From assembly GCA_964016885.1 (NCBI GenBank), contig OZ024743.1, positions 4,836,001 through 4,900,000 of the forward strand: a DNA stretch of 64,000 nucleotides, written 5' to 3'. Shown here piece by piece: positions 25,555 through 55,631 of this stretch (within the stretch, counting starts at the first letter, position 1; each line of letters begins with the position of its first letter). Both the position numbers and the translations under genes were made by a program. The notes below the pieces were generated by a model, which was given only the letters and a program-made list of their open reading frames with translations, did not search any database and was not told where the DNA came from. This DNA comes from Eledone cirrhosa (lineage: Eukaryota).

Positions 25555-26823
25555 CAACATAAAGTAGACATTAAGGACAGTACAGGACAATACAGGACGG
25601 TACAAATGGGCATTTCTGCGTGTAAAAAAAAGAGGATGTAATAAAAATAACAATGAAAAATTCCCCAATAGGGGGGAGACTTCCGAAGGACATTTGTGGA
25701 GAAAGCCCATTAAAAGGCCACAGTGACCCTGACCACCAGGGCAAGTGCCCTCTCCCAGTTTTCCACCTTTAATTTAAAGACACATACTCAGAGTAGACCC
25801 ATTCACTCGAGCCATACTTGCTTCTCTCACCCATCTTTCAACAAAATGGTGGGAAGAGAGCACTTCCCTCTCTACCCTGATTTTCCTTTTCAAATGAAAT
25901 TTGAAAAAGTTAATCAGGGCATCACCGAAGAGGTAAGTGCTCGTCTTCAGCCCTTTCAAACGTGTCCACCATACTATCTCTTTCGCCATGGCCACCAGAC
26001 AGATAAAAACTGCCTGCCCTTCCCGGCTAAAGGAAGAAGCGGGACAATCCTCACGATGGACTCAGCTGATAGCTGGATCCGTCCTACAGGTGACAGCAGG
26101 TGTTCGACATAAACCCACAAGTCAGCAATGCTCGGACAGTGGACGAGTGCGTGCAGGACGGTTTCGTCGCCCTGCGCACATCTCGGACATGCCCGGCTGA
26201 CGGCACCTCCATGCCTTTCGAGTTTATTCCGAACTGGCAAAGCTCCTCGGTAGCACTGCCAGGCCAGGGATTTGTGGAAGTTGTCCATAGGCCCCGGCCC
26301 GAAAGTCCTTCCGAAGAGATTGGCTAGTTGATTTTCGTCGACGCCTAGAGTTTCTCCAAGTACGTCGTCGCTCTTCCCCTCCACTAATCCTCTATAGACG
26401 GCCAAGGTGGAGTTTCCACCGATCACATTGCCCGATTGGTCGAGTGCTGTGTGCGCCTGAAGACATTCCAGTCTCCAAGCGCTCCCTCTCGGTCTTCGCT
26501 TGACCCAGGACTGCAGCTCCGTCAAGGAGACGAGCTGGGGAAAGACGTGTCTAGCAAACGGCGACCACACCTGATCACCGTCGAGGAAGAGGTGGAGATG
26601 TCGTAGCCTGAGCGCGTGTCTGCGCATCATCAGCCACGGCATGCCTAGCCCTCCACGTAGCGGGTGTTGACAGCAGATGGACCGCCTGACCATCGGAGCG
26701 CGTCCCTTCCACAATAAGCGAAAGAGCAAACGCTCCAGCGCAGTCAGGCGGTGCTTAGGATAAGGTACGACGGTCAGGCGGTAGTAGATGACGGATGCGG
26801 TGTACGTATTCGCCACCTCCGCT
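25555..26823 (-). mobile_element. Tx1-like LINE 3' fragment (ORF2 C-terminus + 3'UTR)
   Basis: ORFs 25974..26816 and 25774..25995 are clear homologs of the C-terminal half of 28463..29923. The 3'UTR is nearly the same as 34150-34380. Confidence 0.9.
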
Positions 26824-26944
26824 CGAGGTTAACTTTGCTTTCCTCATTACGGAGTCGATAAAATAAAGTACCAGTAATGTACTGGGTATTTGCTGGCCTT
26901 GTGTCAAAAGTAGAAGCAATTAAATTTGTTTTTGGAGGGGGAGG

Positions 26945-28140
26945 GAAGAGAATTTTTTTCTTTTTTGGTTTCTTTTTTCTTTTTTCCTGATACCGTTACC
27001 TACTCCTCGTCGTCACAATCTGTCTCCAGTTGTGATAGGCCGGGGAGTGGAAAATCCTCCACAGCCGTTAGTTTTGGTTGTGGTGTGGTGGATGGTGTAG
27101 GCGCTGGTGCTAGTTCTGGCGCGTTGGGTGGTGGTGGTGTTGGTTTTGCTACTGTTGCTGGGGTTGTTGCTGTTACAGTTGCTTCTGTTGTTGCTGCTAC
27201 AGTTGTTGCTGCCATCTCTGCTGCTGGTGTTGTTGATGGTTGAGTCACCGGGGTGGGTAACAGAGGTGGCCTCAACCTTTTAGCCTGAAGGCAGAAAGCC
27301 ATTCACCACAAACGACACACCTAGGCCTTCTGCCCTCGACGATTACGGTGAGGTGGCTGCCCTCAGTGAGGTCTATTACCTCTGGGATCTCCTCAATGCT
27401 GTTTTGGTCCGCTTGGATCAGGAGCTCCATCCCAGATCCGGACCAATTCTCCTGCATTTCTTTCGCTATTACGATTATCTTGGTGTTGGCTTCGATGCCG
27501 GTGGGGACGGCAGCTATTAGCCAGGGAATTTCGATGGCCGGTGGAACGTGGGTGACCCTGATCTTTACGAGTTTCTGGCTACAATAGTTTGGGACGAGTG
27601 TGAAGTCGTCACTTCTTAATGGGGCCATGTTCTCTAGCCTCCTGTGGGTGTTTCAAAGAACACGTCCACGGTTCCATATTTCTGCCCACGTCTGATTTGG
27701 GTGTTTTTTGCCCACATATGTCCCAAAGCTTTTTGGATTTGGGACTCGGATGCCCGTTCCACTCGGCGCGATTTTATGTTAATTGTTCGATAAGACACGG
27801 TGCATAGGCGCCGATGCTCCATTTTATTAGGTGGAGGGGTGAGGCTGACCCTGTACCCATCTTTCTTTACCATTTTTCGGTGTGAGGTGTTAGTTTGTGA
27901 GGAAGGTGTGACCCTGAGTCGTCCATGATTTTTCAAAGAAAAATCTTTTTTTGATAATTATAAAAGTTTAAATTTTGGGCTCAAGGCCCCAATCTTTATG
28001 GGTGTCCTTTTCAGAAATCAATGTGTGTGCACTTATATACAGTTAACAATAAAAATTTCCCATAAATGGCAATTTTAAACAACTGAAAATAACAAACCTT
28101 TGCGGAGCTCACAATAATACGATTTACTACGTACGTCGCC
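26945..28140 (-). mobile_element. Tx1-like LINE 5' fragment (5'UTR + degenerate ORF1)
   Basis: ORFs 27634..27936, 27272..27628 and 27000..27302 align by eye with ORF1 at 32060-33350 (RVERASESQIQKALG, VEGRRPRC). Confidence 0.85.
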
Positions 28141-28462
28141 AATAATAATAATAATAATGATTTCTTTATTGGCCACAAGGGCTGACATCAAGAAAAACAT
28201 TACAGACAGCACAGGACGGTACAGGACGGTACGATGTGGGTTTTGTGCGTGTAAATATTTTTATTATTTATATAAGAAAAGAAAAAAAAGGACATAGAAA
28301 CATATATATATATAAACAATAAAAATTAAAATTAAAACAATGAAAAATTCCCCAATAGGGGGGAAACCTCCGAGGGTTACTCGTGGCGAAAACCACACAA
28401 ACGACCACGGCTACCCTGACCACCAGGGCAAGCGCCCTCTCTCAATTTTTCCATTTCTCAAA

Positions 28463-31400
28463 CTACAGGCGTATATTCAGAGCGGTCCCGTTCACTCGGA
28501 CCATTCTCGCTACATTCACCCACCTTTCAACAAACTTGCTAGAAGGCAGCACTTGCCTCTCCACCCTGATTTTCCTCTTCAAGTGAAACTTAAAAAAGTT
28601 AATTAGGGATTCGCTGAAGAGGAAAGTGTCTGTCTTTAACCCTTTTAACCTTGTCCACCACACAATCTCTTTCGCCATGGCCACCAGGCAGATGAAAACC
28701 GCCTGCCCTTCCACCTCGAAGGAAGACGGCGAGACCATCTGCACAATGGACTCAGTCGATAACCGGATCAGTCCTACACGCGACAGCAACTGTTCGACAT
28801 AGCTCCACAAGTCAGCAATGTTCGGGCACTGAACGAGTGCGTGCACGACGGTTTCGTCGCTCTGCGCGCATCTCGGACAGGCTCGGCTGACGGCACTTCC
28901 GTACCTGTAGAGCTTATCTCGAACCGGCAGCGCACCCCGGTAGCACTGCCAGGCCAGGGATTTTTGGAAGTTATCCATAGGCCCTGGGCTGAAAGTTCTC
29001 CGGAAGAGAGCAAACAGCTGATCTTCTTCGACGCCCAGGATCTCTCCGAGAATGTCGTCGCTCTTCCCCTCCACTAGTCCTCTATAGAACGCCGAGGTGG
29101 ATGTTCCACAGATACTGGTGCCCAGCTGGCAGAGGGCAGTGAGCGCCTGGAGACATTCCAGTTTCCAAGCGCTATCCCTCGGTCTTTTTCTGACCCAGGA
29201 CTGCAGCTCCGTCAAGGAGACGAGCTGTGGGAAAACGTGCCTGGCGAACGGCGACCACACCTGTTCACCGTCAAGTAAGCACCAGAGATGTCGCAGCCTC
29301 AGCGCATGTTTGCGCATCATCAGCCATGGCATGCCCAGTCCTCCACGCAACGGGTGTTGACAGCAGATGGATCGTCTGACCATGGTAGCGCCTCCCTTCC
29401 ACAAAAAGCGGAAGCGGAGGCGCTCCATTTTGGTGAAAGTTGGGCTGGAGCAAGGGACGACGGTGAGGCGGTAGCAGATGACGGATGCAATGTACGCATT
29501 TGCCACCTCCGCCCGGCCTTTCAGGGACAGCTTCCTCTCGGCCCATTTCTGGGTGAGGGAGGCCACGCTGCTCGTCACCTCGTTACAGTTTTTTTCCATC
29601 TGGAGGTCCGGTCCGAACCAGACCCCGAGCAATTTAACCGGTCCGTCCGTCCAACGCCCCACGACGCTGTCGGACGGCATGGACTTGCCTCTCCAGGTGC
29701 CGAGCTGCAAGCCCACCGACTTTTCCTGGTTTATCTTTGCTCCTGTCAACGCTTCGTATTCCTTGAGAGCGGTGCCGAGCATCTGGACGTGTCTGGTGCT
29801 CGACACCAATACTGTGACGTAGTCGGCGTAAGCCGACTCGGATTTCCCCCATCCTAGTTTGCGTGGGACGCCCCTCATCGCCCCCAGTTTGTGCAGTAAC
29901 GGCTCGAGAGCCAATACGTACAAGAGGGACGAGAGGAGACAACCCTGGCGGACTGAGCGTATGATGCTGAACGGCTACGACAGGTGACCGTTCAGCCTCA
30001 CAACTGAGCAGATGTCGCTGTACATTGCTGCGATCCAACCCCTGAAAACGGGCCCGAAACCGGCTGCCTCGAGGACCGCCACCAGGTACCGATGGTCGAC
30101 CCTATCGAATGCTTTGGATTGATCCAAGTTGATCAGGGCCTCACCCGTGCCAAGTTCCTTAACCACTCTCTCTATGATGTATCGCATGGGGTGCAGGTTG
30201 TCGTGTATGGATCTGTCCGGAATGGCGCATGTCTGCGCCTCTCCCACCAGACCCTTGACGACAAGCGCCAACCTCGTTACTAACACCTTGGCCAAAATCT
30301 TGAACTCTGCGTTTAGCAGAGCCTGAAATTATCGATAACATCCCCCTTGTTCGGATCTTTTCTCAGCAGCGCCACTGCTCCCCGGCTCACAAAACTGGGA
30401 ATGCTCCCGTTCTGCTGCCAGTTGCAGTAAACGTCTGCCAAGAGGTCACCGAACAAGTCTGGCATAAATGCATAAAGCTCGTAGGGCAGATCATCCAAAC
30501 CTGGCGATTTACCCCTTGTGCAGTTAGCCATCGCTTCCCGTATTTCACCGGCTGTTATTGACTTTTCGCAACACTGTGCTGCGGTCGTCGAGAGCCGAGC
30601 CAGTCCGTCGAGGTATGCACTGAAGTCCATGCCCCGATCCTGGCCGCCGCTGCCCCCGAACAGTTCAACAAAGTGCTGCTGAAAAGCTTCACACATCCGC
30701 TCGGGTTCGAGCATCACGCACCCGTTTTGGTCAGACAAAGACCGAATTGTGGCTTTGTTGCCACGTCGCGCCTCTGCCACCCGGGCCCATTGGACGGCTT
30801 TTGCCCCTCGTGTTTCAGAGCACGCGCTCTAGCACTGACAACGCAGCCTTCGTGTTTTGCGTTGAAGAATTGGTTGAGTGGCAATCTCGCGGCAAGCACG
30901 TCGGTTGCGATGCCTGTCCTAAACGCCTCTTCTAGCTTTCTGGCTAGCTCTCCCTCTACTCTATTTTCCTCTATCACTATTCCTTTGCTAAACCTAATCG
31001 ACTCTACTTTAATTGCCCTTTTCAGGGCGAACCACCACCTGTTGTTGACGACCGCTCCCGTCAACGCCCGCTTAACTAATACGCTAATCCGGTCTCTGTA
31101 GGCTTTGCGCGCCGGAAAGACGCGTTCAGCTTCCAGTAACCAGGCCCTTGTCTATGAAGTCTGTCTATGTCGATCTCACAGATCACAAATTTGTGGTCTG
31201 TGTAGTCGACTATTTTAAATTGTGGACAACTTATACTAGCCTTATCTAGTTCTCTGCAGAATATCCTATCGAGATACGATCTGGATGACCTGATGCGGTT
31301 TGTCCATGTCGACATTGGCACATTCGGGTGCGCAAAACGTCTGAGCAGGTTGGTGAGGCTCTTGCACCCTCCTCCCATATCCACTATCCCCACACAATCC

Positions 31401-31884
31401 CAGCGTGCATCCAAGGTACCGTTCCAGTCGCCCACTAACACTAAAGAGCGGGACGTTCCAAGAAAGGTCTCTAGACGTCTGAAGAAGTCTGGCCGTCCTG
31501 CCCCTGTTGGGGCGTAGACGGCTACTAACATGAAAGCATTGCCTTCGCTGCCGGTCACGTCCAGCACCACCGACTTACCTTCTGGGTCTAGGAAGATGGC
31601 TCGTATGGCGAGATCCAAGCCTCTCCGAAAAAGGACGACAACCCCTCCCCCGATCCTGGACGGCTGGGAGATGCGTATACATCGTAGCCGCCGAAGATCG
31701 GTGCGAAGGCTTGTGCTTCGGAGATTCTGGTCTCACTGATGGCCACTACATCTATGTTTAGTGACCTGAGGTCGTTGAGCAGGTGACCCTGTTTCCAAGA
31801 TGACCCCAGGCCACGTGCATTTATACTGCCTATTCTGAGTACGGCCATGTTGGATGAGAAACGGGGCAAGTGAGAAAGGGTCAC
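28463..31884 (-). pseudogene. LINE ORF2 (APE endonuclease + reverse transcriptase + C-terminal zinc finger), several frameshifts
   Basis: APE motifs: SINARGL, ISET, VAVYAP, LVGDWN, YLDRIF, TDH. RT motifs: KSPGLDD, LDQSKAFDRVDH, LALEPLL, AYADY (YADD mutated), KLLGVWF. C-terminus: CPRC...ETVVHAL..C. Confidence 0.93.
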
Positions 31885-31899
31885 TTACCTTGATCGTGT

Positions 31900-33943
31900 G
31901 GTGAAGGGACAGTAGAACCGTCCCTTTCGCTGGTCATGGGTGTTTCCAAGAGGATGTCAGTGTATATCCTCTTGGTAACCGACCCTCTGAAGTCTCCAAC
32001 TGCGTTGAGGAATTTTTGTTTTAAAGGTGTGTACTGTTCTATTGAGATTTCAATGATGCTTATGTTTGTCGGGTGAGTTCTTGTGTTGGTGGGGTGTAGT
32101 AGTTTTTTTCTGTGATGTCTGTGTGCTGCTTTATATATTGTATGAGTTCTTTTTTTGCCATGTTTATGGCTGTGTACATTTTGGTGGGAGGGGTGGTTTT
32201 GTTGCTGTTTTCTTCTTGTTGCTGTTTGGTGTGTGTGTCTTGTTGTGTTTGCGTTGTTGGTGTTTTTGGTGATGCTGGTGGTGGTGTGGTTGTTGTTGTC
32301 AGTGGTGCTTGTGGTGGTGATGGTGGTGGTGTTGCTGCAAGTTTCCTTGCTGCCTTTACCCTTCTTTGTATGCCTTCGCTTTTGGAGGGTGAATCTAAGG
32401 TTTTTTTTCTTTTTTCTTTTTTGTGGCAGACCGTTTGCCACTTCACTCCCGCCTCAAACTCCATGTCGGATTCTGTGGCGTCTGGGAGGGGTATGTGCTC
32501 CACGGCTGTTGGTGGTGGTAGTGGAGCTCTCTTCGGCAATTTTGTTGCTGGTGTAGCTACTTCAAATGTAGCTATTGGCGTTGCCGCTACTAATGATGCT
32601 GCTTTAGTTGTCCGTGGCCATGGTACGGGTGCTACGGACGTTGCCCTCCTACTCACCGTGGACGGGGCTTCTGCGTTTGTTGTCTGTCCTGCTCTTGGTA
32701 GCAGCGGACTAGGTATTGGAAGGAGAGGGGCCTTCTTCTTCGGTGTCTTCTGCGGGCAAAAAACCCTGAGGTGACCCTTCGACCCACAGAGATAACATTT
32801 TGGCCGTCTTCCTTCTACACTTATAGGGAGTTGGAGTCCTTCCTCGATGTCTATGATATCGGGGATAGCGTCGATACATTCCTGGTCAGTTTGTATAAGC
32901 ATTTGCATGCCTATACCTGACCAGTTCTCTCTCCCTATTTTTTCTACTTGCAGCATGGTCGTCCTGTTCTCGATTCCAGCAATGACAGACGCGGCCAGCC
33001 AAGGTATGGGCACGTCGGGTGGGACCTGGGTCACTTTGACCCTCACAATTTTCTACCCGCAGTAGGAGGGCACCAAGACTATCTCCTCACTCTTTACGAT
33101 TTCCAAAGAGTGAGACTTTGCTTCCTGGGGGGTGGCGAAAAGTACGTCTACTGTGGCGTACTTTCTGCCTCGGGTGATGTGGGTTTTGCGTGCCCAGACG
33201 CACCCCATGGCCTTTTGGATTTGAGCCTCCGTGGCTCTCTCCACCCGATGTGAGATTTTGCTTACGGTGCGGTAAGTCACCGTCCGTAGCTGCTGGTCCT
33301 TGAAAAAATCGGGTGGAGATTTCAGGGAGACTCTATTGGCGCCTCTTGTCACCATGGCCCTTGCGACTGCCATCTCCTCCTCTGTGACTAACACTGTCTC
33401 GATATTTCGGGCGACACCTGCAAAAGAAGTGGTCCCTTTTTCAGCAGCACCACTATTGCTGCCGCTACTGGTCTTACTAGTGGTGCTGAGATCGCTATTA
33501 CAGGTATCGGTGTCATTGTTGATGTTTTCGTTGGTACAGTTGTTGGTGTTGTTGTTGTTGTTTTCGTTGATACTGTTGCTGTTGTTACTGTTATTGTGGC
33601 TGATGTTATTATTGTTGTTTTTGTTGATACTGTTCCTACTATTATTGTTGTTGTGGCTGTTGTTATTGTCATTGTTATTGTCGTTCTCGACGTTACCGCT
33701 GTTATTTTTGTTGTTACTGTTGTTATTGATGGTGTTGTTGTTGGTGTTGTTGTTGGTGTTATTGTTGGTGTTGTTTGTGTTAGAAATATTTGTTAATTTT
33801 AAATCTGTAACAATCTTCTTTTCCTTTGTAATATGTTCGTTTATATTTACCTCCGCTGGAACGCTGTCTTGTTGACATACTGATAAAGTCCCCCTCTCTC
33901 TGTGTTGTCTGACAGCGCTCTCTCTGTTTCTTGTGTTATACAT
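31900..33943 (-). pseudogene. LINE ORF1 (gag-like nucleic-acid chaperone) with CCHC zinc knuckle; frameshift near 33050
   Basis: ORFs 33053..33943 and 32060..33046 abut. Features include the CYLCGSKGHLRVFC knuckle, an Asn-rich N-terminal tract and a Pro/Thr-rich C-terminal tail. A homologous copy lies at 27000-27936. Confidence 0.82.
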
Positions 33944-34120
33944 GTTGAAATTTTTATTTTTTTTATATATTTACACAAATACGAATACGGCACCCCGTAA
34001 AGGGGTGCCGTATTATTTACGAGTGAACCCCTGTGTTAGGTGGGTCACTTCTTCTAAACTTTTATCAAATTTAAAACTTGAATAAAAGGTTTAGAACGGT
34101 TGAAAACGAGGTAAAACGTT

Positions 34121-35015
34121 CAATAATGCTTTCTTTATTAACCACAAGAGTTTACATAAAGTAGACATTAAGGACAGTACAGGACAATACAGGACGGTAC
34201 AAATGGGCATTTATGCGTGTAAAAATCAAAAACAAAGGATGTAACAAAAAAAATAACAATGAAAAATTCCCCAATACGTGGGAGACTTCCGAGGGACATT
34301 CGTGGAGAAAGCCCATTAAAAAACCACAGTTGGCCTGACTACCGGGGCAAGTGCCCTCTCCCAGTTTTCCACCTTTAATTTACAGACACATACTCAGAGT
34401 AGGCCCATTCACTCGGGCCATAATTGCTTCTCTCACCCATCTTTCAACAAAATGGTGGGAAGAGAGCACTTCCCTCTCTACCCTGATTTTCCTTTTCAGA
34501 TGAAATTTGAAAAAGTTAATCAGGGCATCACCGAAGAGGTAAGTGCTCGTCTTCAGCCCTTTCAAACGTGTCCACCATACTATCTCTTTCGCCATGGCCA
34601 CCAGACAGATAAAAACTGCCTGCCCTTCCTGGCTAAAGGAAGAGGGCGGGGCAATCCTCACGATGGACTCAGCTGATAGCTGGATCCATCCTACAGGTGA
34701 CAGCAGGTGTTCGACATAAACCCACAAGTCAGCAATGCTCGGACACTGGACGAGTGCGTGCAGGACGGTTTCGTCGCCCTGCACGCATCTCGGACATGCC
34801 CGGCTGACGGCACCTCCTTGCCTGTAGAGTTTATCCCGAACTAGCAAAGCTCCTCGGTAGCACTTCCAGGCCAGGGATTTCTGAAAGTTCTTCCGAAGAG
34901 ATTGGCTAGTTGATTTTCGTCGACGCCTAGAGTTTCCCCAAGTACGTCGTCGCTCTTCCCGTCCACTAATCCTCTATAGAACGCCGAGGTGGAGTTTCCA
35001 CCGATCACATTGCCG
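34121..35015 (-). mobile_element. 5'-truncated Tx1-like LINE copy
   Basis: ORF 34380..34847 is near-identical to the 25774-26260 peptide. The AATAAA-containing 3' end is near 34130. Confidence 0.9.
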
Positions 35016-35686: not shown

Positions 35687-35746
<60 letters not shown>

Positions 35747-36186
35747 TACAAGGATATTCAATTTGTTGGTAATTCAACAAATATAAATGTTTATAACTGA
35801 TTCAAAGCACTCGACAGATTTTCTGGAGTATAATATTCAATGATATTAAATAAATAGAAACTATATTTATAAAACCATATTTATTCTATTATATATATTT
35901 CAAGGGTACCAAAACTTTGGTACGCTCTCATCAGATAAAATACAAACTTTGTTTTATAAATATTGACATAACCAGAAAAAAATACCCTAACGGTTATGTC
36001 AATTGGCAATGAACGGAAAAAAACGTATTATCTTCGTTTTTTTTTCGTTCATTGCCAGAGAACGTCTCCACGAACCACCTAATAGAATATTAGTCTACGA
36101 CTTCATTTATACCATAGACGTGGTTTTGTCTTTGCGTGTAATTGAAGAGATAGTGAAAATATATGCTATTTTCAAAAATACACAGT

Positions 36187-36292
36187 GACTGATCGGCCTG
36201 ATTTGCATATTAGCAGACTGGCTGATCAGTCAGATCTGCATATTAGCAGATCCACTGATCAGCCAGATTTCCATATCAGCAGACTGGCCAGT
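36187..36292. repeat. 33-bp tandem repeat x3
   Basis: gat(t/c)t(g/c)catat(t/c)agcaga at 36200, 36233 and 36266. Confidence 0.85.
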
Positions 36293-36483
36293 CAGTTCCT
36301 GTATACGAGCGATAAATGGCCGGCTTTGCTAAATTCAAATAAAAAAGACAATTTCGCTCTACATGGCTGAATACAATAAATATAATCTGAGGTTTTCGAA
36401 TATTAATAAAACATTCGATTATGAAAACAAGCCTCAATTTTATAGCCATGTCAGTAGAATGAACACTTCATTCTTGCTCTTAT

Positions 36484-36549
36484 GCGAACAGTGAGCTGTA
36501 CTGATGAAGAGTGATATCCAGAAACATTAGTGTCTGCAGTTCTGTTCGC
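36484..36549 (+). ncRNA. Type I hammerhead ribozyme at apex of long hairpin
   Basis: gctgta-CTGATGA(36501)-agagtgatatcca-GAAA-cattagt-GTC(36532-34)-tgcagt. Stem III is near-palindromic (ACATTAGTGT). Stem II is weak. Confidence 0.7.
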
Positions 36550-36652
36550 ATGCCAACATAAGAGCAAGAATGAAGTGTTCATTCTACTGACATCGCTATA
36601 AAATTGAGGCGTGTTTGCATAATTACAAACGAATCAAATGTTATTATTAATA

Positions 36653-36952
36653 CTAGCAGAAAAACCACCCTTCGGGTGGTTTTCTGCTGGCCTGTGTAGT
36701 GAACATATTGATATTATACGCAAGTATATATACATGTAGATATGATACATCAAATAAAATCGTAATTGACAATATACACAGAAATTGAACGAAGACTGCG
36801 TTACACTGTCTTATGTAATCAGTAACGTAATCCATTGACGGGAATATATGACTGTTTATTTAAGCGATCGCTAACCGGAAGTGTTGACATGTGAACATTT
36901 TAAAGAAGTGAATCTTAAAATAAGCGACAAAATTATTTATATATAATGAAGA
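36653..36952 (-). mobile_element. Possible short non-autonomous Helitron
   Basis: The minus strand ends with the GC hairpin gcagaaaaccacc-cgaa-gggtggtttttctgc and CTAG|T. The putative start is TCTTCATTATATATAAA. Confidence 0.35.
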
Positions 36953-37283
36953 ATAACGAAATTTAGTAGATTAATTATGTAATATTCATTCATTATTTAT
37001 TCAAAGTTTATTTATTCCATTCTGAGTTCAAATCCCGCCGAGGTTAACTTTGCCTTTCATCCTTACGGGGTCGATAAAATAAAGTACCACTAATACACTG
37101 GATAATTGCTGGCCTTGTGCCTAAAGTAGAAACAATTATTTATTCAAAGTAATCCAACTTATTTTACAAACGGGATAAAAAAAAAATATTCTGGACGCAG
37201 ACCCGCACTCCTTTCTTTATTATAGTTTAGATTCGAAAAACTCAGATTACATTTATTGTATTCAGCCATGTAGAGCGAAATTT

Positions 37284-40590: not shown

Positions 40591-41582
40591 ATTAAATAAA
40601 TGGAAACTATATTTATAAAACCATATTTATTTCATTATATATATTTCGGGGATATCATATTAACAATATGCTATGCCTTCCTCAGACAAAATACAATATA
40701 AACAGTTTTATAGATAAATAGATTCGACATACCGTTATAACACCGACTTCCATTTGAAGAGGTTTAAGCTGGCAGTGAAAAAATTTTACACAGAGAGAAA
40801 GAAAGAGAGAAAAAAAAGAGAGAAAAAAAGAAAGAAAGACAGAAAACGAAGAAAAGGAAGAAAAAGAAGAAATGCATGGAACAAAATAGAGAGATGGAAA
40901 GATAGATAAAGCGAAGAACTTCATGTAAAGAAACAGAAAGAGATATATATATATAGAGAGAGAGGAAATAGAGATAGATACATATATATATATAGAAAAT
41001 TAGGTAGTGGGAGGTCATTTTGAGTAAATGTATCAATGATACATTTATTTATTTATTTATTTATTTAGCTCAAGTATTAATGTAAGGGAGATATATAGAG
41101 AGAGAAAAAAAATATAGAGAGAGAAAAAATAGCGAGAGAAAAAAATTTAAAAATAGCCAGATATATTCGAGGCGTAAAAACCCTATTTACGCCTCGAATA
41201 TATCTGGCTATTTTTAAATTTTTTTCTCTCGCTATTTTTTCTCTCTCTATATTTTTTTTCTCTCTTTTTTTTCTCTCTTTCTTTCTCTCTGTGTAAAATT
41301 TTTTCACTGCCAGCTTAAACCTCTTCAAATGGAAGTCGGTGTTATAACGGTATGTCGAATCTATTTATCTATAAAACTGTTTATATTGTATTTTGTCTGA
41401 GGAAGGCATAGCATATTGTTAATATGATATCCCCGAAATATATATAATGAAATAAATATGGTTTTATAAATATAGTTTCCATTTATTTAATATTGTAAAT
41501 ATACTCCAAATATTTGTCGAGTACTTTTATATCAGTTATAAATATTTACTAGTTGTAACCCAACAATTTTAAATATAACTTT

Positions 41583-48379: not shown

Positions 48380-51213
48380 TATATTGTTATACTTTGGGAG
48401 GGTCATGTTGCCAATAAGAAACACACGCACCAGTGCTTTCACTTCAATTTATTATAATAAATTTATAAATTTAGGAATTTATAAATTTCTGGTTGGTTGG
48501 TTGGTTGGTTCCACAACCAGATAGTTGTTTATATATTGTCAAAGTTCTTTCGTCACACATTCTGTGACCGCTTCAGTGACTGGGATTCTTTTCTTTGTTT
48601 TTGTGCCTCTCCTTTGTTCTGTCCTACGCCATTTTGTTTCTGTGTGTGTGTTGTGTGCTCAGTCTGCGCATGCGCCACATCCGGGTGTCTGTGTGTGTTT
48701 ATATTTGTTTATTTATTTGTTTATTTACATGTTACCGGTTGGTTGTTTGTTCTATGTGTGTGTGTGTTTTCATTTTGTCCTTAATTGTAAGTTGTGATGT
48801 TGCTGTTCCACTCATATTTTCTATTTAATTTTGGTTGTAATTCTTTTATGTTTATTGCCTCTGTGATTTGTCTAAACATTGCGTCTTTTCTGTGTGTAGA
48901 TTCTATTTTTATTTCTATGTTCTCTAATTTACCCTTATGTTCTATTTTAGCATGTTGGTAGAGTACAGATTATTCTTTACTATCTTGAAGGTCTCGCCAG
49001 TGTTCATTTATCCGTTCCCCTACACTACGAGCTGTCTCACCTATGTACACTATATTTTTGTCTCTACATTGTCCTTCAGTACATCTTATGCTATACACTA
49101 CATTTCTAGTTTTACAGTTAATATGGGGGATTATTTTACAGGTTATACATTTCTTATCTATACAGGGGGGGGTCTTTGGAAAGGGTATGTCTTGCTAATA
49201 AGTGTTTTTACGGAGGTACCTGGTCTTTCTACTATCTTAATATTGAGTTTATGTTTATCTAGGGCTCTTCTAAATTTGGAAGCTAATTCACCTCTAGGGG
49301 TTGTATCGATGAACATTACACTCTGGTATTTATTGCTATCATACCATGAGTTTATTCTATTAGCCTTATTCCTAGTTCTTTCTATTCTATTCCAAAATTT
49401 GCTCCTATACAAGGGGCAGGTCCTATTTGTGTCATTATTTATCATTTTTTCCCATTTGATTCTGGCTCCTCTATACACTCTGATTCTATCTCTCTGATTG
49501 TAACCAGAGAACTGCATACGGTGGATGAAGTGTTGTATGTGTCTCTCTAGTTCTTCGGGGTTGCACATGCGGGACACGTTTCTCATCACCCGTACCAAAT
49601 CCGCAATCAGTATGTTGATTTTGGTATGGTCCGAAACAAGACCAGCAAGAGGCAGACCACCTACCATTACCTCAATGGCCAAGAAAACCCACACAGATAG
49701 ATGGAACGGGTGGACCAGAGCCATACGGACAGCCGAAAACCACGATGAACTGAAGAAAATGATTGCACATGCGGTAGGGGCCAGCATAAAACTAACCCTT
49801 AAGGAACATATGTTCAAATTTAATGGAAAAACATATGCCCAAGAGGAAGGAGCAGCCATTGGTGTTAGCATTGCAGGCGACATGGCTAACTTATTCATGG
49901 TATGGTGGGACAGTAGACTTAAACTTAAACTTAAAGAACAATTAGAAGACCCCTTAACCCTGATAATGTACTCCCGCTACGTTGATGATATAAACATCGT
50001 AGTTAAGACACCCCCACTAGGGAACAGTCAGGAACTAGAGAAAAACACAATGGAAAGCATCCAGCAAATAGCTAACTCCATCCACCAGAGTCTCTATAGA
50101 CTACCCAAGTAAACACCCCAACCATCGATTGCCTGTACTAGACACAGAGCTCTGGTTAGATACCATTAATAACAAAAAATAAATCCCCCGTTCCCATTAT
50201 GCCAAACCCATGACTTCCAAACATCTGATCCACCGAAACTCGGCTGTTTCAGACCATACCAAAATCAACATACTGATTGCGGATTTGGTACGGGTGATGA
50301 GAAACGTGTCCCGCGTGTGCAAATTTAGAAGGGCCCTAGATAAACATAAACTCAATATTAAGATAGTAGAAAGACCAGGTACCTCCGTAAAAACACTTAT
50401 TAGCAAGACATACCCTTTCCAAAGACCCCCTGTATAGATAAGAAATGTATAACCTGTAAAATAATCCCCCATATTAACTGTAAAACTAGAAATGTAGTGT
50501 ATAGCATAAGATGTACTGAAGGATAATGTAGAGACAAAAATATAGTGTACATAGGTGAGACAGCTCGTAGTGTAGGGGAACGGATAAATGAACACTGGCG
50601 AGACCTTCAAGATAGTAAAGAATCATCTGTACTCTACCAACATGCTAAAATAGAACATAAGGGTAAATTAGAGAACATAGAAATAAAAATAGAATCTACA
50701 CACAGAAAAGACGCAATGTTTAGACAAATCACAGAGGCAATAAACATAAAAGAATTACAACCAAAATTAAATAGAAAATATGAGTGGAACAGCAACATCA
50801 CAACTTACAATTAAGGACAAAATGAAAACACACACACACATAGAACAAACAACCAACCGGTAACATGTAAATAAACAAATAAATAAACAAATATAAACAC
50901 ACACAGACACCCGGATGTGGCGTATGCGCAGACTGAGCACACAACACACACACAGAAACAAAATGGCGTAGGACAGAACAAAGGAGAGGCACAAAAACAA
51001 AGAAAAGAATCCCAGTCACTGAAGCGGTCACAGAATGTGTGACGAAAGAACTTTGACAATATATAAACAACTATCTGGTTGTGGAACCAACCAACCAACC
51101 AACCAGAAATTTATAAATTCCTAAATTTATAAATTTATTATAATAAATTGAAGTGAAAGCACTGGTGCGTGTGTTTCTTATTGGCAACATGACCCTCCCA
51201 AAGTATAACAATA
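48380..51213. mobile_element. Penelope-like element with large 5' inversion (inverted pLTR+EN copy, partial RT, GIY-YIG, pLTR)
   Basis: 48380-49275 is a near-perfect reverse complement of 50320-51213. RT motifs GAAIGVSIAGDMANLFM and YSRYVDD lie in 49635-50112. GIY-YIG motif YIGETARS...EH...EAINI..LN lies in 50545..50814. Confidence 0.9.
51015..51057 (+). ncRNA. Variant hammerhead-like motif in PLE pLTR (CUGAAGC core); mirror at ~48538-48580
   Basis: gtca-CTGAAGC-ggtcaca-gaatg-tgtgac-GAAA-gaa-CTT-tgac. Confidence 0.5.
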
Positions 51214-51339
51214 TCGGTTTCAACACACGATTTCAGATAAAGAATCTTGCTAAACAAATTCAGAAACGAAATATATATATATATATAACATATATAACAT
51301 ATATATATATATATAACATATATAACATAGATATAATAT

Positions 51340-52021: not shown

Positions 52022-52290
52022 TGGAAAGTTATATTTAAATTGTTGGGTTACAACTAGTAAATATTTATAACTGATATAAAAGCACTCAACAAGTATTTGG
52101 AGTATATTTACGATATTAAATAAATGGAAACTATATTTATAAAACCATATTTATTTCATTATATATATTTCAGGGATATCATATTAACAATATGTTATGC
52201 CTTCCTCAGACAAAATACAATATAGACAGTTTTATAGATAAATAGATTTGACATACCGTTCAACATCGACTTGTATTTGAAAAAGTTGAT

Positions 52291-54153
52291 TTGGCAGTGA
52301 GAAATTGTAAACAGAAAGAAAGAAAGAGAGAAAGAAGGAAAGAAAGAAAAGAAAGAAAGAAAACGAAGAAAAAGGCAGATAAGGCCGAGCTTGAGAAAAT
52401 GAATGTCGAAGCATCTTGTATAATGCACGAGTTGGAAATTGAGAACAGAACACAACCTTTCGTGCCCAGGAAACCGAAGATCAATATGAAAGATCACAAA
52501 AGGAATTTTGAAAATGTCTTACCAGTTAGATTGATCGCACCATCAAAATCGGACCTGGGCAAATTAAGCAAAAACATTCTTGACAGGGTGATACAGCAAA
52601 TTAAGAACTTGGATTGTTTACCTAACCTGAGCTTGTGGAAGGGAACTGGAGAGGTTGTTGAGTGGTTTAAACAAATTAAATATAACAATAATAATAAGTT
52701 TATTCAACTTGATATTGCTAACTATTATTCTTCTATTACCCCTAATCTACTAAATAAGGCACTAAATTACGCATTCAAACATACAGACCTAACTAGCAAT
52801 GAAATGCACATTATATTATCGGCTAGGAAAACATTGATAGAATTTAATGACCAACTATGGACCAGAGCAGATAGAGATAGCAATTTTGACATTACTATGG
52901 GATCATCCGACTCAGCTCAGGTAACTGACCTTGTGGGCTTATTTTTAATCAATTCGCTACATAGAAAAATACCTGGTACTACCGGAGGTTTATATAGAGA
53001 TGACATGCTTTTACTTATTGATAATAATAACTCTGAACTAAATAGAAAAAGAAAACAAATTACACAATTTTTTAATTACTTTAATCTTAAAATAGAAATT
53101 GAGAACAACCATAGAATAGTCAATTTCCTAGATATAACATTAAATCTCAACACATGTCTTCACTATCCTTTTCACAAGTTGAATCAAAACTTAAACTATG
53201 TCAGCTTTAACTCTAACCACCCCAGATCTGTCAAAAACACTATAGTAAACTCTGTTCAAAAACGTATCTCTAGAATCTCGTCTAATAGAAAGATTTTCGA
53301 CGAAAAAGCCCAGTACTACAATGAAGCGTTAGCTAGAGCAGGATATAGTGATAAGATTATGTACATAGATAATGATAGACAACCTAAACAAAATAACAAC
53401 TATTTTAATTACGGCAACAACCTTAACAAATATAATAGAAAGCATTACAATAATTCCAAAAGCCAAAAAAGAAATAGAACTAGGAACATAATTTGGTTTG
53501 CCCCCCCTTTCTCACTAAACATTAAAACCCACATCGCTAAACTATTTTTTAAAGCTCTTGATAATCGCTTCCCTAGAACACATAGGTATCACTCAATTTT
53601 CAATAGACATACTATAAAATTAACCTACTCATCCACCAAAAATTTAGCACAAAATATTAATAGAATAAATAATAGGAACTTAAAACCTAGTGATAATAGC
53701 ATAAATAATATACAAGTTAACAAATGTAACTGTAGAGATAGATCTAAATGTCCGTTAAATAACAACTGCTTAGTTAAAAATATAATATACAATTGTAATG
53801 TTAAAACTGACTCTAATTCTTTTAACTACGTCGGTTCCACATCGATGGAATTTAAACTTCGCTATAATAACCACAAGAATTCTTTCACAGATCCAAGCAA
53901 AAAATCTTCAACAGCACTATCAGGCGTACTCTGGCAACTTAAGCTAGATAACGTTAGATATTCGACGGCTTGGAATATAGTCTCAAGAGGGATTCCTTTT
54001 AATTCATCCTATGAGACATGTGACCTCTGTGCAGAGGAGATATTCTTTATACTAAAATCTAAAAATTCCCTTAATCTACGGACAAATTTATTCAGTTGCT
54101 GCAAACATAGATTAAACTCAACTTTTAAATATAAATTTAAATTTAAAATGTAG
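52291..54153 (+). CDS. Penelope-like element RT + GIY-YIG endonuclease (Naiad-type), uninterrupted but 5'-truncated
   Basis: RT motifs: QLDIANYYSSI, ITMGSSDSAQVTDLVG, LYRDD, VNFLDITL, SNHP. Endonuclease: IIY...YVGST...RYNNH. Cys motifs CNC..CP...C, CDLC and CCKH resemble Naiad PLEs. The first ~28 codons come from the inverted pLTR (junction ~52375). Confidence 0.92.
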   Translation: MAVRNCKQKERKRERRKERKERKKTKKKADKAELEKMNVEASCIMHELEIENRTQPFVPRKPKINMKDHKRNFENVLPVRLIAPSKSDLGKLSKNILDRVIQQIKNLDCLPNLSLWKGTGEVVEWFKQIKYNNNNKFIQLDIANYYSSITPNLLNKALNYAFKHTDLTSNEMHIILSARKTLIEFNDQLWTRADRDSNFDITMGSSDSAQVTDLVGLFLINSLHRKIPGTTGGLYRDDMLLLIDNNNSELNRKRKQITQFFNYFNLKIEIENNHRIVNFLDITLNLNTCLHYPFHKLNQNLNYVSFNSNHPRSVKNTIVNSVQKRISRISSNRKIFDEKAQYYNEALARAGYSDKIMYIDNDRQPKQNNNYFNYGNNLNKYNRKHYNNSKSQKRNRTRNIIWFAPPFSLNIKTHIAKLFFKALDNRFPRTHRYHSIFNRHTIKLTYSSTKNLAQNINRINNRNLKPSDNSINNIQVNKCNCRDRSKCPLNNNCLVKNIIYNCNVKTDSNSFNYVGSTSMEFKLRYNNHKNSFTDPSKKSSTALSGVLWQLKLDNVRYSTAWNIVSRGIPFNSSYETCDLCAEEIFFILKSKNSLNLRTNLFSCCKHRLNSTFKYKFKFKM

Positions 54154-55487
54154 TATATTTAGTTTGATTTATAATTATTTGGGAAACTAGCCGATAAATC
54201 TTTCGATTTCTTCTTTTTATTCTTCTTTTTATTTTTATTTTTATTTTTATTTAAACATTCTTCATGAAAAATTAAACTACCCTAAAAGTTGATGCTCCAA
54301 ATATTTCGATTAAACGTTACACTAGATAAACTTCTATATTAAATATAAGAACACATGTAGACCAAATGGGCATCCTAAACTTTTTGAAATGATTTTTGCT
54401 AGACGCGATTTGATAAATAATTTTTAGCTTTATCTGTTTTCGACTCTGATGCTTATAATGAACTTGGCAATATATTGTCAATTAATTTTGAAGGGTTGAT
54501 CTTTGTGGTTTATTTTTATTGTTGTAATATTTTCTAATATTTTTATTTTTAATATGTAATATTTTTTTGTAATATTTTTTAGTTTTCTATTTTATTATTA
54601 TTTATTATTATTATTATTATTTTTTTTTGTTTTTGTTTCTGATATTTTTTATTAATATATTGAAATCTGTTCTCTATTTCTGCTTGATAGATAATCATGT
54701 AGAGTAAAGACAAGAATAGTATTCTTAAAATTAATATAGACTCTATATATATGTGTATATATATACACATATATGTATACTTAAATTTTTATAGCGCAAT
54801 GAGAATGTTCTCCGTGTGAAATAGGGGTTTGCAGAGTTGATCACGTAAATTCACATCGATGTTTGTAGTTATCATATAAACATATGAATTTTTAAAACTA
54901 AACATAAGATCATTACTTTTCACACATTATGGATACGTGTCTCATTCAGGAATACTGATATTTACATTATAGTGCCTGGTTTTTATACGTACTAATACTT
55001 CTACATTAAAACATAGGGTTTTTAAATTATGCCTCGCCTATGTCTGGTTACTTTTCATTTTTCTCTATATATAACGGCTGGTTTCTCTCCTAACCACATA
55101 TATCTCCCTTACATTAATACTAGAGCTAAATAAATAAATAAATAAATAAATGTATCATTGATACGTTCATTCAACGGATGTCCAACTACCTACTTTTCTC
55201 TATATATATCTATCTCTATCTATTTCCTTTCTCTATATATATCTCTCTCTGTTTCTTTACATGAAGTTCTTCTCTTTATCTATCTTTCCATCTCTCTATT
55301 TTGTTGCATGCATTTCTTCTTTTTCTTCTTTTTCTTCGTTTTCTTTCTTTCTTTTCTTTCTTTCCTTCTTTCTCTCTTTCTTTCTTTCTGTTTACAATTT
55401 CTCACTGCCAAATCAACTTTTTCAAATACAAGTCGATGTTGAACGGTATGTCAAATCTATTTATCTATAAAACTGTCTATATTGTAT

Positions 55488-55545
55488 TTTGTCTGAGGAA
55501 GGCATAACATATTGTTAATATGATATCCCTGAAATATATATAATG
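55488..55545 (+). ncRNA. Hammerhead-like motif in Naiad-type pLTR (copies at ~52158-52215 -, ~40636-40692 -, ~41391-41447 +, diverged ~35888-35940 -)
   Basis: ttttgt-CTGAGGA-agg[hairpin]cct-GAAA-tatat-ataa. The diverged copy has CTGATGA and a different but still paired stem II. The cleavage-triplet register is ambiguous. Confidence 0.55.
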
Positions 55546-55631
55546 AAATAAATATGGTTTTATAAATATAGTTTCCATTTATTTAATATCGTATATATAT
55601 ATATATATATATTTATATATAAGATATTAAG

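What the first reader, a model, noticed from the sequence alone, without database searches (positions are those of the whole stretch)
36401..36652. Hammerhead core at the tip of a ~100-bp rod-like hairpin (retrozyme- or viroid-like architecture)
Seen: stem I of a canonical CUGAUGA/GAAA/GUC hammerhead is extended by long inverted arms. gcctcaattttatagccatgtcagtagaatgaacacttcattcttgctcttatg pairs with 36557-36610, and pairing continues out to 36401/36652. Unlike the other fold-backs here, the ribozyme is not duplicated in the arms; it sits once at the apex and could fold in the full transcript. Inference: a small non-coding mobile unit whose RNA is a self-nicking dsRNA rod.
Basis: partly seen in the sequence, partly recalled or inferred. 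Interest (0 to 1): 0.72.

Follow-up and report, generated by a model that had tools for sequence, protein, structure and literature searches.

The report
Inverted retrozyme insertion, not RNA rod
The hairpin and hammerhead motif are real, but they are one damaged copy of a 437-base non-coding repeat with thousands of copies, likely pasted in back-to-back by a Penelope-type retrotransposon; the rod's junction occurs only here, so it is an ordinary example of a known kind of element (retrozyme), not a viroid-like unit.

Summary
The fold-back (z -15) and type I hammerhead core (36501-36534) are real. The hammerhead belongs to a 437-nt non-coding monomer (683 exact 45-nt cores; 3,242 exact 3'-region matches in this 3.0-Gb animal genome). 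In 186 sampled insertions, 112 are head-to-head pairs with variable junctions; only 1 of 112 has the hammerhead once at the apex, and this window's junction is unique genome-wide. Both rod 'boundaries' are artefacts: the left arm runs on to 36146, and the right arm is split at 36652 by a Helitron-like insert and resumes at 37232. Insertion scars are Penelope-like: TA targets, two 3' end sites about 35 nt apart, one per arm in 79 of 83 pairs. The family core is conserved (26 changes vs 59 expected), but this copy has two private stem II changes, and the predicted rod fold sequesters the core. Verdict: new member of a known kind (animal non-LTR retrozyme / non-autonomous Penelope derivative). 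The autonomous partner was not found and there is no RNA evidence. This scan has reported similar families in this genome many times.

The parts
36146..36491 (-). Left arm: inverted, 5'-truncated copy of the 437-nt monomer (about m8/m23 to m374; m1 = base after the GUC). An 8-nt deletion lies near the junction. Its 3' end is non-canonical, likely lost by a later deletion (inferred).
36486..36652 (+). Forward copy, monomer positions m389 to m119, carrying the hammerhead. 36486-36491 is a 6-nt microhomology shared with the left arm and supplied by stem I complementarity.
36501..36534 (+). Type I hammerhead core with an extra A after CUGAUGA and an extra A before GAAA; predicted cleavage 36534/36535
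   Evidence: cleavage not tested
36509..36519 (+). Stem II: 4 bp with 3-nt loop in the family; two private substitutions here (36510 A for G, 36517 T for C) abolish the predicted hairpin
   Evidence: (family letter in about 99% of laid depth)
36524..36533 (+). Stem III segment: 3 bp with 4-nt loop as monomer; self-complementary over 10 nt (-8.8 kcal/mol duplex); also complementary to the core (7-bp blocking helix)
36535..36547 (+). Stem I 3' strand, pairing with 36486-36500 around a 2-nt bulge
36653..37231 (-). Non-autonomous Helitron-like insert (5' TC, 3' hairpin plus CTAG, between A and T, no target duplication); it creates the apparent right end of the rod
   Evidence: hallmarks from PMC4344730
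37007..37134 (+). Short interspersed repeat inside the Helitron-like insert, flanked by a 15-bp direct repeat (SINE label recalled, not tested)
37232..37283 (+). Remainder of the forward copy (m120 to about m171), ending at the family's 'long' 3' site, followed by a CA/TA microsatellite
35689..36145 (.). Neighbouring, unrelated repeats: a minus-strand copy with another hammerhead motif (CTGATGA at 35934) and a plus-strand fragment 36023-36145 of a third family that abuts the left arm

Best explanation
This is one decayed insertion of a 437-nt, protein-free, hammerhead-bearing repeat (an animal non-LTR retrozyme) that was likely copied into DNA by a Penelope-type reverse transcriptase/endonuclease, and the rod is likely a by-product of that insertion. 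Shown: monomer size, copy number, head-to-head pairs with variable junctions, two 3' end sites used one per arm, TA-rich flanks, allele sharing between arms, core conservation, uniqueness of this junction. Inferred: tandem copies are transcribed, self-cleave (probably best as dimers) and may circularise; the borrowed enzyme cuts both strands of an AT-rich target and starts cDNA from two internal sites about 35 nt apart on the same RNA, one from each DNA end; the two 5'-truncated cDNAs are joined by microhomology. Here the join used the 6-nt complementarity of hammerhead stem I, which leaves the ribozyme once at the tip. Later a Helitron-like element split the right arm, the left arm's far end was likely deleted, and stem II mutated, so this copy is predicted to cleave poorly or not at all.
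For: 437-nt spacing of tandem cores; 683, 711 and 3,242 exact pattern matches with 0 control matches. 112 of 186 insertions are head-to-head (50 of 87 in the least biased sample), junction overlap >=1 nt in 62 of 112; 79 of 83 pairs with two canonical ends combine one short (m135-152) and one long (m160-192) end, against 41.5 expected. 3' ends: 45 of 100 at m142-150, 54 at m168-188, mostly running into (TA)n. This matches the inverted 5'-truncated copy and 30-40-bp tail of PLEs (PMC8557442) and the two RT start sites with cutting and extension of both strands in vitro (PMC11167929). Arms share diagnostic alleles 287 of 363 vs 210 expected; tandem units 208 of 249 vs 139.5. Core changes 26 vs 59 base-matched expectation in 128 copies not selected on the core. 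18 of 100 copies exceed one monomer. Young PLE-like ORFs abound in the genome (70 of 70 scored matches at 95-100%). Window junction unique.
Against: No autonomous element sharing this monomer was found: best E 0.24 against 20 PLE-like loci, none in 12 paired loci. No long tandem arrays seen: the longest single-orientation runs in the 15 best long loci are about 680-910 nt, near 2 monomers, whereas described retrozymes range to tens or hundreds of units. The family hammerhead is atypical (A opposite A at the base of stem II), has no Rfam match and is predicted to be self-blocked as a monomer (+6.2 kcal/mol); a blocked dimer is still 8 kcal/mol below the double hammerhead. Cleavage, transcription and circles are untested. 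29 of 112 pairs, including this type of copy, have at least one non-canonical 3' end. All unselected samples come from contig C1.
Confidence: 0.86

Rival explanations
1. One reading: the ~250-nt rod with an apical hammerhead is itself the mobile unit and acts as a self-nicking dsRNA (viroid-like).
For: Strong fold. A search with the rod as query returns many short palindromic copies that contain one hammerhead (L002-L030).
Against: Those copies were selected by likeness to the rod and their junctions differ from one another. Junction unique; 1 of 112 unselected pairs has this layout; both boundaries are explained by other events. The two repeated-junction cases checked in detail (L262, L272) are local duplications that include flank; L035/L036 share 3 kb of flank.
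Confidence: 0.03
2. The monomer is simply the pseudo-LTR of an autonomous Penelope-like element whose ORF-bearing copies are rare or lost, so the copies are 5'-truncated PLE insertions rather than a self-standing retrozyme.
For: [quoted passage not shown]
Against: Long copies wrap round into the same monomer rather than into coding sequence; no ORF found attached.
Confidence: 0.08
3. The inversion arose by fold-back self-priming of a single cDNA at stem I (hairpin copying), or by a later DNA rearrangement, not by priming from both target ends.
For: The junction lies in stem I complementarity; 9 of 112 pairs are centred on the small palindrome at m6-m27; self-priming was proposed for palindromic PLE junctions (PMC3846280); arms share alleles.
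Against: Fold-back cannot make an arm longer than its template (left arm runs to m374, right arm ends at about m171), and does not explain why arms take opposite 3' end sites in 79 of 83 pairs; most junctions are asymmetric.
Confidence: 0.1

Closest known systems
Metazoan non-LTR retrozymes (Cervera and de la Pena 2020, PMC7229834, parts 2-4 of 6 read; Li, Clavereau and Pollet 2026, 10.64898/2026.07.22.740005, parts 1-3 of 5 read)
   Same: Non-coding tandem monomer with one type I hammerhead, AT-rich, strongly self-paired (L047 monomer z -9), co-occurring with PLE-like elements; size within the 51-972 bp range of the 2026 survey; an unpaired base of stem II has a precedent (U-U in axolotl HHR_Amex2).
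   Different: Mostly dispersed sub-dimer copies in head-to-head pairs, no long arrays seen; hammerhead predicted to be self-blocked in the monomer, which the 2020 paper describes for plant retrozymes and viroids rather than most animal ones; RNA and circles not shown here.
Penelope-like elements with hammerhead pLTRs (PMC8557442 and PMC3846280, passages read; PMC4209133 and PMC11167929, parts 1-2 of 4 read)
   Same: Partial tandems, adjacent inverted 5'-truncated copy, 30-40-nt optional tail, (TA)n/AT-rich targets, extra base at 9/10.1, palindromic stem III.
   Different: No RT/GIY-YIG ORF; no autonomous element with this terminal sequence found.
Hammerhead viroids and plant LTR retrozymes (as described in PMC7229834; otherwise recalled)
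   Same: Hammerhead motif; predicted self-pairing that blocks the core.
   Different: The rod is a genomic inverted duplication unique to one locus, not a conserved circular RNA fold; type I, no LTR/PBS/PPT seen; no replication evidence.
Non-autonomous Helitrons (PMC4344730, passages read)
   Same: The 36653-37231 insert has 5' TC, 3' hairpin and CTAG, and AT flanks.
   Different: Only explains the rod's right edge; no RepHel partner was sought.

Membership tests
Type I hammerhead ribozyme | Core CUGANGA / GAAA / UH in type I order with stems I-III | tested here: met
   core intact in 111 of 138 copies, core plus 4-bp stem II in 75 of 138
Type I hammerhead ribozyme | Stable stem II closing directly on the core | tested here: inconclusive
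   Family: 4 bp but with an A on each side at the base; window copy: not met, hairpin energy 0.0
Type I hammerhead ribozyme | Match to Rfam hammerhead models | tested here: not met
Type I hammerhead ribozyme | Self-cleavage | not testable with these tools
   Indirect only: core conservation and a drop in 5' ends across the predicted site
Non-LTR retrozyme | Non-coding monomer of a few hundred nt with one type I HHR, in tandem | tested here: met
   437-nt tandem with two intact cores in L047/L048; further same-strand pairs 437-438 nt apart
Non-LTR retrozyme | Multimeric arrays (three or more units) | tested here: inconclusive
   None in 15 best long loci or in the sampled loci; no genome-wide tandem scan possible
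Non-LTR retrozyme | Expressed as linear and circular monomer RNA | not testable with these tools
   No run on record as RNA was listed
Penelope-like element (insertion type) | Inverted 5'-truncated copy adjacent at the 5' end | tested here: met
   112 of 186 insertions
Penelope-like element (insertion type) | Optional 30-40-bp tail at one end only | tested here: met
   79 of 83 pairs short+long; end clusters m144/149 and m168-182
Penelope-like element (insertion type) | RT plus GIY-YIG ORF, or homology to the pLTR of an autonomous element | tested here: not met
   search limited to one PLE-like family and 12 paired loci
Viroid-like rod as mobile unit | Same arms and boundaries in other copies | tested here: not met
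Helitron (insert 36653-37231) | 5' TC, 3' hairpin + CTRR, insertion between A and T, independent copies | tested here: met
   25 of 30 loci found by its end lie outside this monomer; both ends read in 14 of 30;

The most novel reading that the evidence does not exclude
The family is an animal retrozyme with a viroid-style off switch (core paired to its own palindromic stem III in the monomer, released in dimers), and its genomic copies record hammerhead cleavage in vivo: 5' ends pile up just 3' of the predicted cut (12 of 54 at risk in m1-20 vs 2 of 42 in the next 20 nt upstream), so cleaved linear RNA as well as uncut or circular RNA is copied from two start sites into both ends of one DNA break by a borrowed Penelope enzyme.
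Probability: 0.25. Interest if true: 0.5.

Novelty: new member of a known kind. Interest (0 to 1): 0.2.

Why it matters
As a locus it matters little: a decayed repeat copy whose rod is accidental. As a family it adds genomic support to the published but untested idea that animal retrozymes are moved by Penelope-like enzymes (one short and one tailed end per insertion, both arms sharing alleles), and offers a modest, testable hint that ribozyme cleavage defines some template 5' ends in vivo, which in vitro work on the anole PLE did not see. About 60% of insertions would give fold-back RNA if read through, a possible dsRNA source for editing or silencing (inference, untested). This scan has already reported the same insertion pattern for several other hammerhead families in this genome.

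Tried and rejected
Rfam: no hit at gathering threshold in the window; only low-scoring repeat-driven matches at E<=10. RNA evidence: no RNA holder listed; laying four contig runs gave only family letter frequencies, and the one guessed-RNA run laid 3 tiny pieces off the element; this says nothing on expression. Autonomous partner: the window's 633-aa ORF (52252-54153) has no Pfam match (its PLE label rests on recalled RT and GIY-YIG-like motifs and on flanking hammerhead repeats in L184/L190) and its loci share nothing significant with the monomer; the PLE-like ORF beside two copies in L272 is separated by about 570 nt of TA repeat. Rod re-mobilisation: repeated junctions were flank-including duplications. 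Helitron-bearing subfamily: rejected as a necessary part, since the insert occurs mostly elsewhere; whether the five or six shared-site cases are independent was not resolved. L320 as an empty site: rejected, it is an unrelated junction of the neighbouring families. Tandem-unit identity within vs between insertions was uninformative (4 loci, 0.940 vs 0.938). A sequence look-up in earlier findings and a near look-up returned nothing. Literature searches listed no paper on cephalopod hammerhead retrozymes; an octopus repeat annotation has no 'ribozyme' occurrence in its main text (PMC13282606). The library is partial and no supplements were read, so family-level prior description (for example in repeat libraries) is not excluded.

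Full report
Observation. The window lies in a 3.0-Gb, microsatellite-rich animal genome (G000:C4:4836001-4900000; 'octopus-like' is from recall and earlier AI notes, not tested). 36395-36660 folds at -125.9 kcal/mol, z -15.1, 0 of 200 shuffles as stable. In that fold, however, the catalytic core is paired with the stem III segment; forcing the hammerhead costs 7.6 kcal/mol, and this copy's stem II has no stable hairpin, against -4.4 kcal/mol in family copy L029. The two stem II letters responsible (36510, 36517) differ from the letter in about 99% of laid contig depth. Rfam finds no hammerhead here.

The real unit. The 300-nt query has many genomic matches (97 listed from 40 scored of 3,645 candidates). 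Exact patterns give 683 (45-nt core), 711 (m16-49) and 3,242 (3' region) matches, controls 0. Same-strand cores 437 nt apart define the monomer; I number it from the base after GUC (m1). A real monomer folds strongly (z -9.0; 68% paired as a circle). On this scale the window is: inverted copy m374 to m23 at 36146-36484, forward copy m389 to m119 at 36486-36652, a 579-bp insert, then m120 to about m171 at 37232-37283 and a microsatellite. The insert reads TC...hairpin-CTAG on the minus strand between A and T; 25 of 30 loci retrieved by its end are outside the monomer, matching Helitron hallmarks (PMC4344730, passages). So 36652 is an insertion point, and 36401 is only where pairing stops because the partner strand was displaced: 36350-36401 pairs with 37231-37282. 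The left arm's far end abuts a fragment of another repeat family, also cut short, which suggests a later deletion (inferred).

Test of the rod hypothesis. The 31-nt junction of this copy has one genomic match at <=2 mismatches, itself. I mapped 210 loci from three pattern-selected samples, all on contig C1, giving 186 distinct insertions: 112 head-to-head, 72 single orientation, 2 three-part; 50 of 87 in the 3'-anchored sample. Junction positions scatter over the monomer; by blast ends 62 overlap by >=1 nt, 11 are blunt, 39 have extra bases. A single hammerhead at the apex of short arms occurs in 1 of 112 (0 of 50 in the 3'-anchored sample); 9 of 112 are centred on a small palindrome at m6-m27 with no hammerhead. 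Loci retrieved by likeness to the rod (L002-L030) often do have one hammerhead in a palindrome, but their junctions differ from one another. Repeated junctions proved to be duplications that include flank. The window's junction uses the six bases of stem I that are complementary by design.

How copies are made. Of 100 3'-anchored rows, 45 end at m142-150, 54 at m168-188 and 1 at m115, mostly into (TA)n; AT-rich flanks blur the ends by a few bases. In head-to-head pairs with two canonical ends, 79 of 83 have one short and one long end (41.5 expected); the other 29 pairs have at least one end outside these classes. An earlier AI note on another family (e1-10310822) prompted this count. An inverted 5'-truncated copy and a 30-40-bp tail at one end are the published PLE anatomy (PMC8557442, passages; PMC3846280, passages), and the anole PLE protein cuts and extends both strands and starts at two internal sites that define the tail (PMC11167929, parts 1-2 of 4). 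Arms of one insertion share diagnostic alleles at 287 of 363 site pairs (210 expected), tandem units at 208 of 249 (139.5 expected); some sites are gap-prone and the set includes L002-L030 and L304-L318. Arms are 94.8% identical within and 92.9% between insertions (47 pairs). 18 of 100 rows exceed one monomer; the longest runs among the 15 best long loci are about two monomers. These fit copying of one multimeric or circular RNA from both DNA ends (inferred); they do not distinguish circle from multimer.

Is the ribozyme alive in the family? In 128 distinct copies not selected on the core, the 11 core positions show 26 changes against 59 expected at base-matched rates, four polymorphic sites left out; copies are related, so the P value (1e-6) is optimistic. 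Core intact in 111 of 138, with 4-bp stem II in 75. The motif has the extra base after CUGAUGA and palindromic stem III of PLE hammerheads that act as dimers (PMC4209133, parts 1-2 of 4), plus an extra A before GAAA. The family monomer is predicted to be blocked (+6.2 kcal/mol); the double hammerhead equals two blocked monomers (-69.4 vs -69.6) but lies 8 kcal/mol above a blocked dimer. 5' ends: after dropping 14 of 100 rows interrupted at m108-110, 17 of 59 at risk end in m1-20 against 2 of 42 in the 20 nt upstream of the cut; without five rows blurred by palindromes, 12 of 54 vs 2 of 42 (P 0.02; 5.0 expected from background). A similar excess lies at m34-53 (13 vs 6.3), a hairpin, so stalling at structure explains this as well as cleavage does. 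About ten copies in a separate sample start within m436-m4 (read by eye). The anole study found no reads starting at the cut and no need for cleavage in vitro. I rate this as suggestive only.

Partner. The window holds a 633-aa PLE-like frame with 70 near-identical genomic matches, but it carries a different hammerhead repeat and shares nothing significant with the monomer. Twelve paired loci showed no ORF bracketed by this family. The partner is unidentified.

Comparison and novelty. Animal non-LTR retrozymes are non-coding tandem repeats with type I hammerheads, expressed as circles and proposed to use PLE machinery (PMC7229834, parts 2-4 of 6); a 2026 preprint links them to pLTRs (10.64898/2026.07.22.740005, parts 1-3 of 5). 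This family works like them and meets the sequence criteria; expression, cleavage and circles are untested (no RNA holder listed). Searches listed no paper on cephalopod examples, and PMC13282606 has no 'ribozyme' in its main text; supplements and repeat libraries were not seen. Earlier notes of this scan describe the same pattern for several families of 310-750 nt in this genome, one of about 430 nt that may be this family (not checked). Verdict: observation partly confirmed, rod-as-unit interpretation rejected, retrozyme label supported; new member of a known kind; interest 0.2.

Noticed in passing
window 52252-54153 (+), between inverted arms 52103-52374 and 55328-55599: 633-aa open frame with RT-like and GIY-YIG-like motifs (recalled) but no Pfam hit; 70 scored genomic matches at 95-100% identity, many with open frames of about 745 aa: a young Penelope-like family with its own hammerhead repeat (also at 40685, 41397, 52209, 55493).
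   Followed up: partly
window 48381-51214: 789-nt perfect inverted arms around a broken RT fragment (weak RVT_1, E 6e-4): another head-to-head Penelope-like insertion.
   Followed up: no
monomer m110-m120 (L041, L049, L052, L055, L058, L163, L213 and others): The same AT-rich site is a hot spot for secondary insertions: a ~190-nt SINE-like repeat with differing 5' truncations (about 13 of 100 anchors) and the Helitron-like element (window, L014, L016, L026, L282; L301 nearby).
   Followed up: partly
window 36992-37149; L014, L026: The Helitron-like insert itself carries SINE-like insertions at one shared site with different 5' ends; L016 lacks it.
   Followed up: partly
window 35689-36145: Another head-to-head pair: a hammerhead-bearing minus-strand copy and a fragment of a third tandem repeat family (about 140-nt internal period, 96-98% identical copies elsewhere).
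   Followed up: partly
window 25974-34973 (-): Fragments of a LINE (Exo_endo_phos, RVT_1, zf-RVT hits).
   Followed up: no
window 16862 (+) and 23115 (-): Further CUGANGA...GAAA motifs not examined.
   Followed up: no
monomer m224-m334 (window 36186-36298): Internal ~33-nt repeats around a palindromic TGATCA motif; unit number varies among copies (L027, L040).
   Followed up: no
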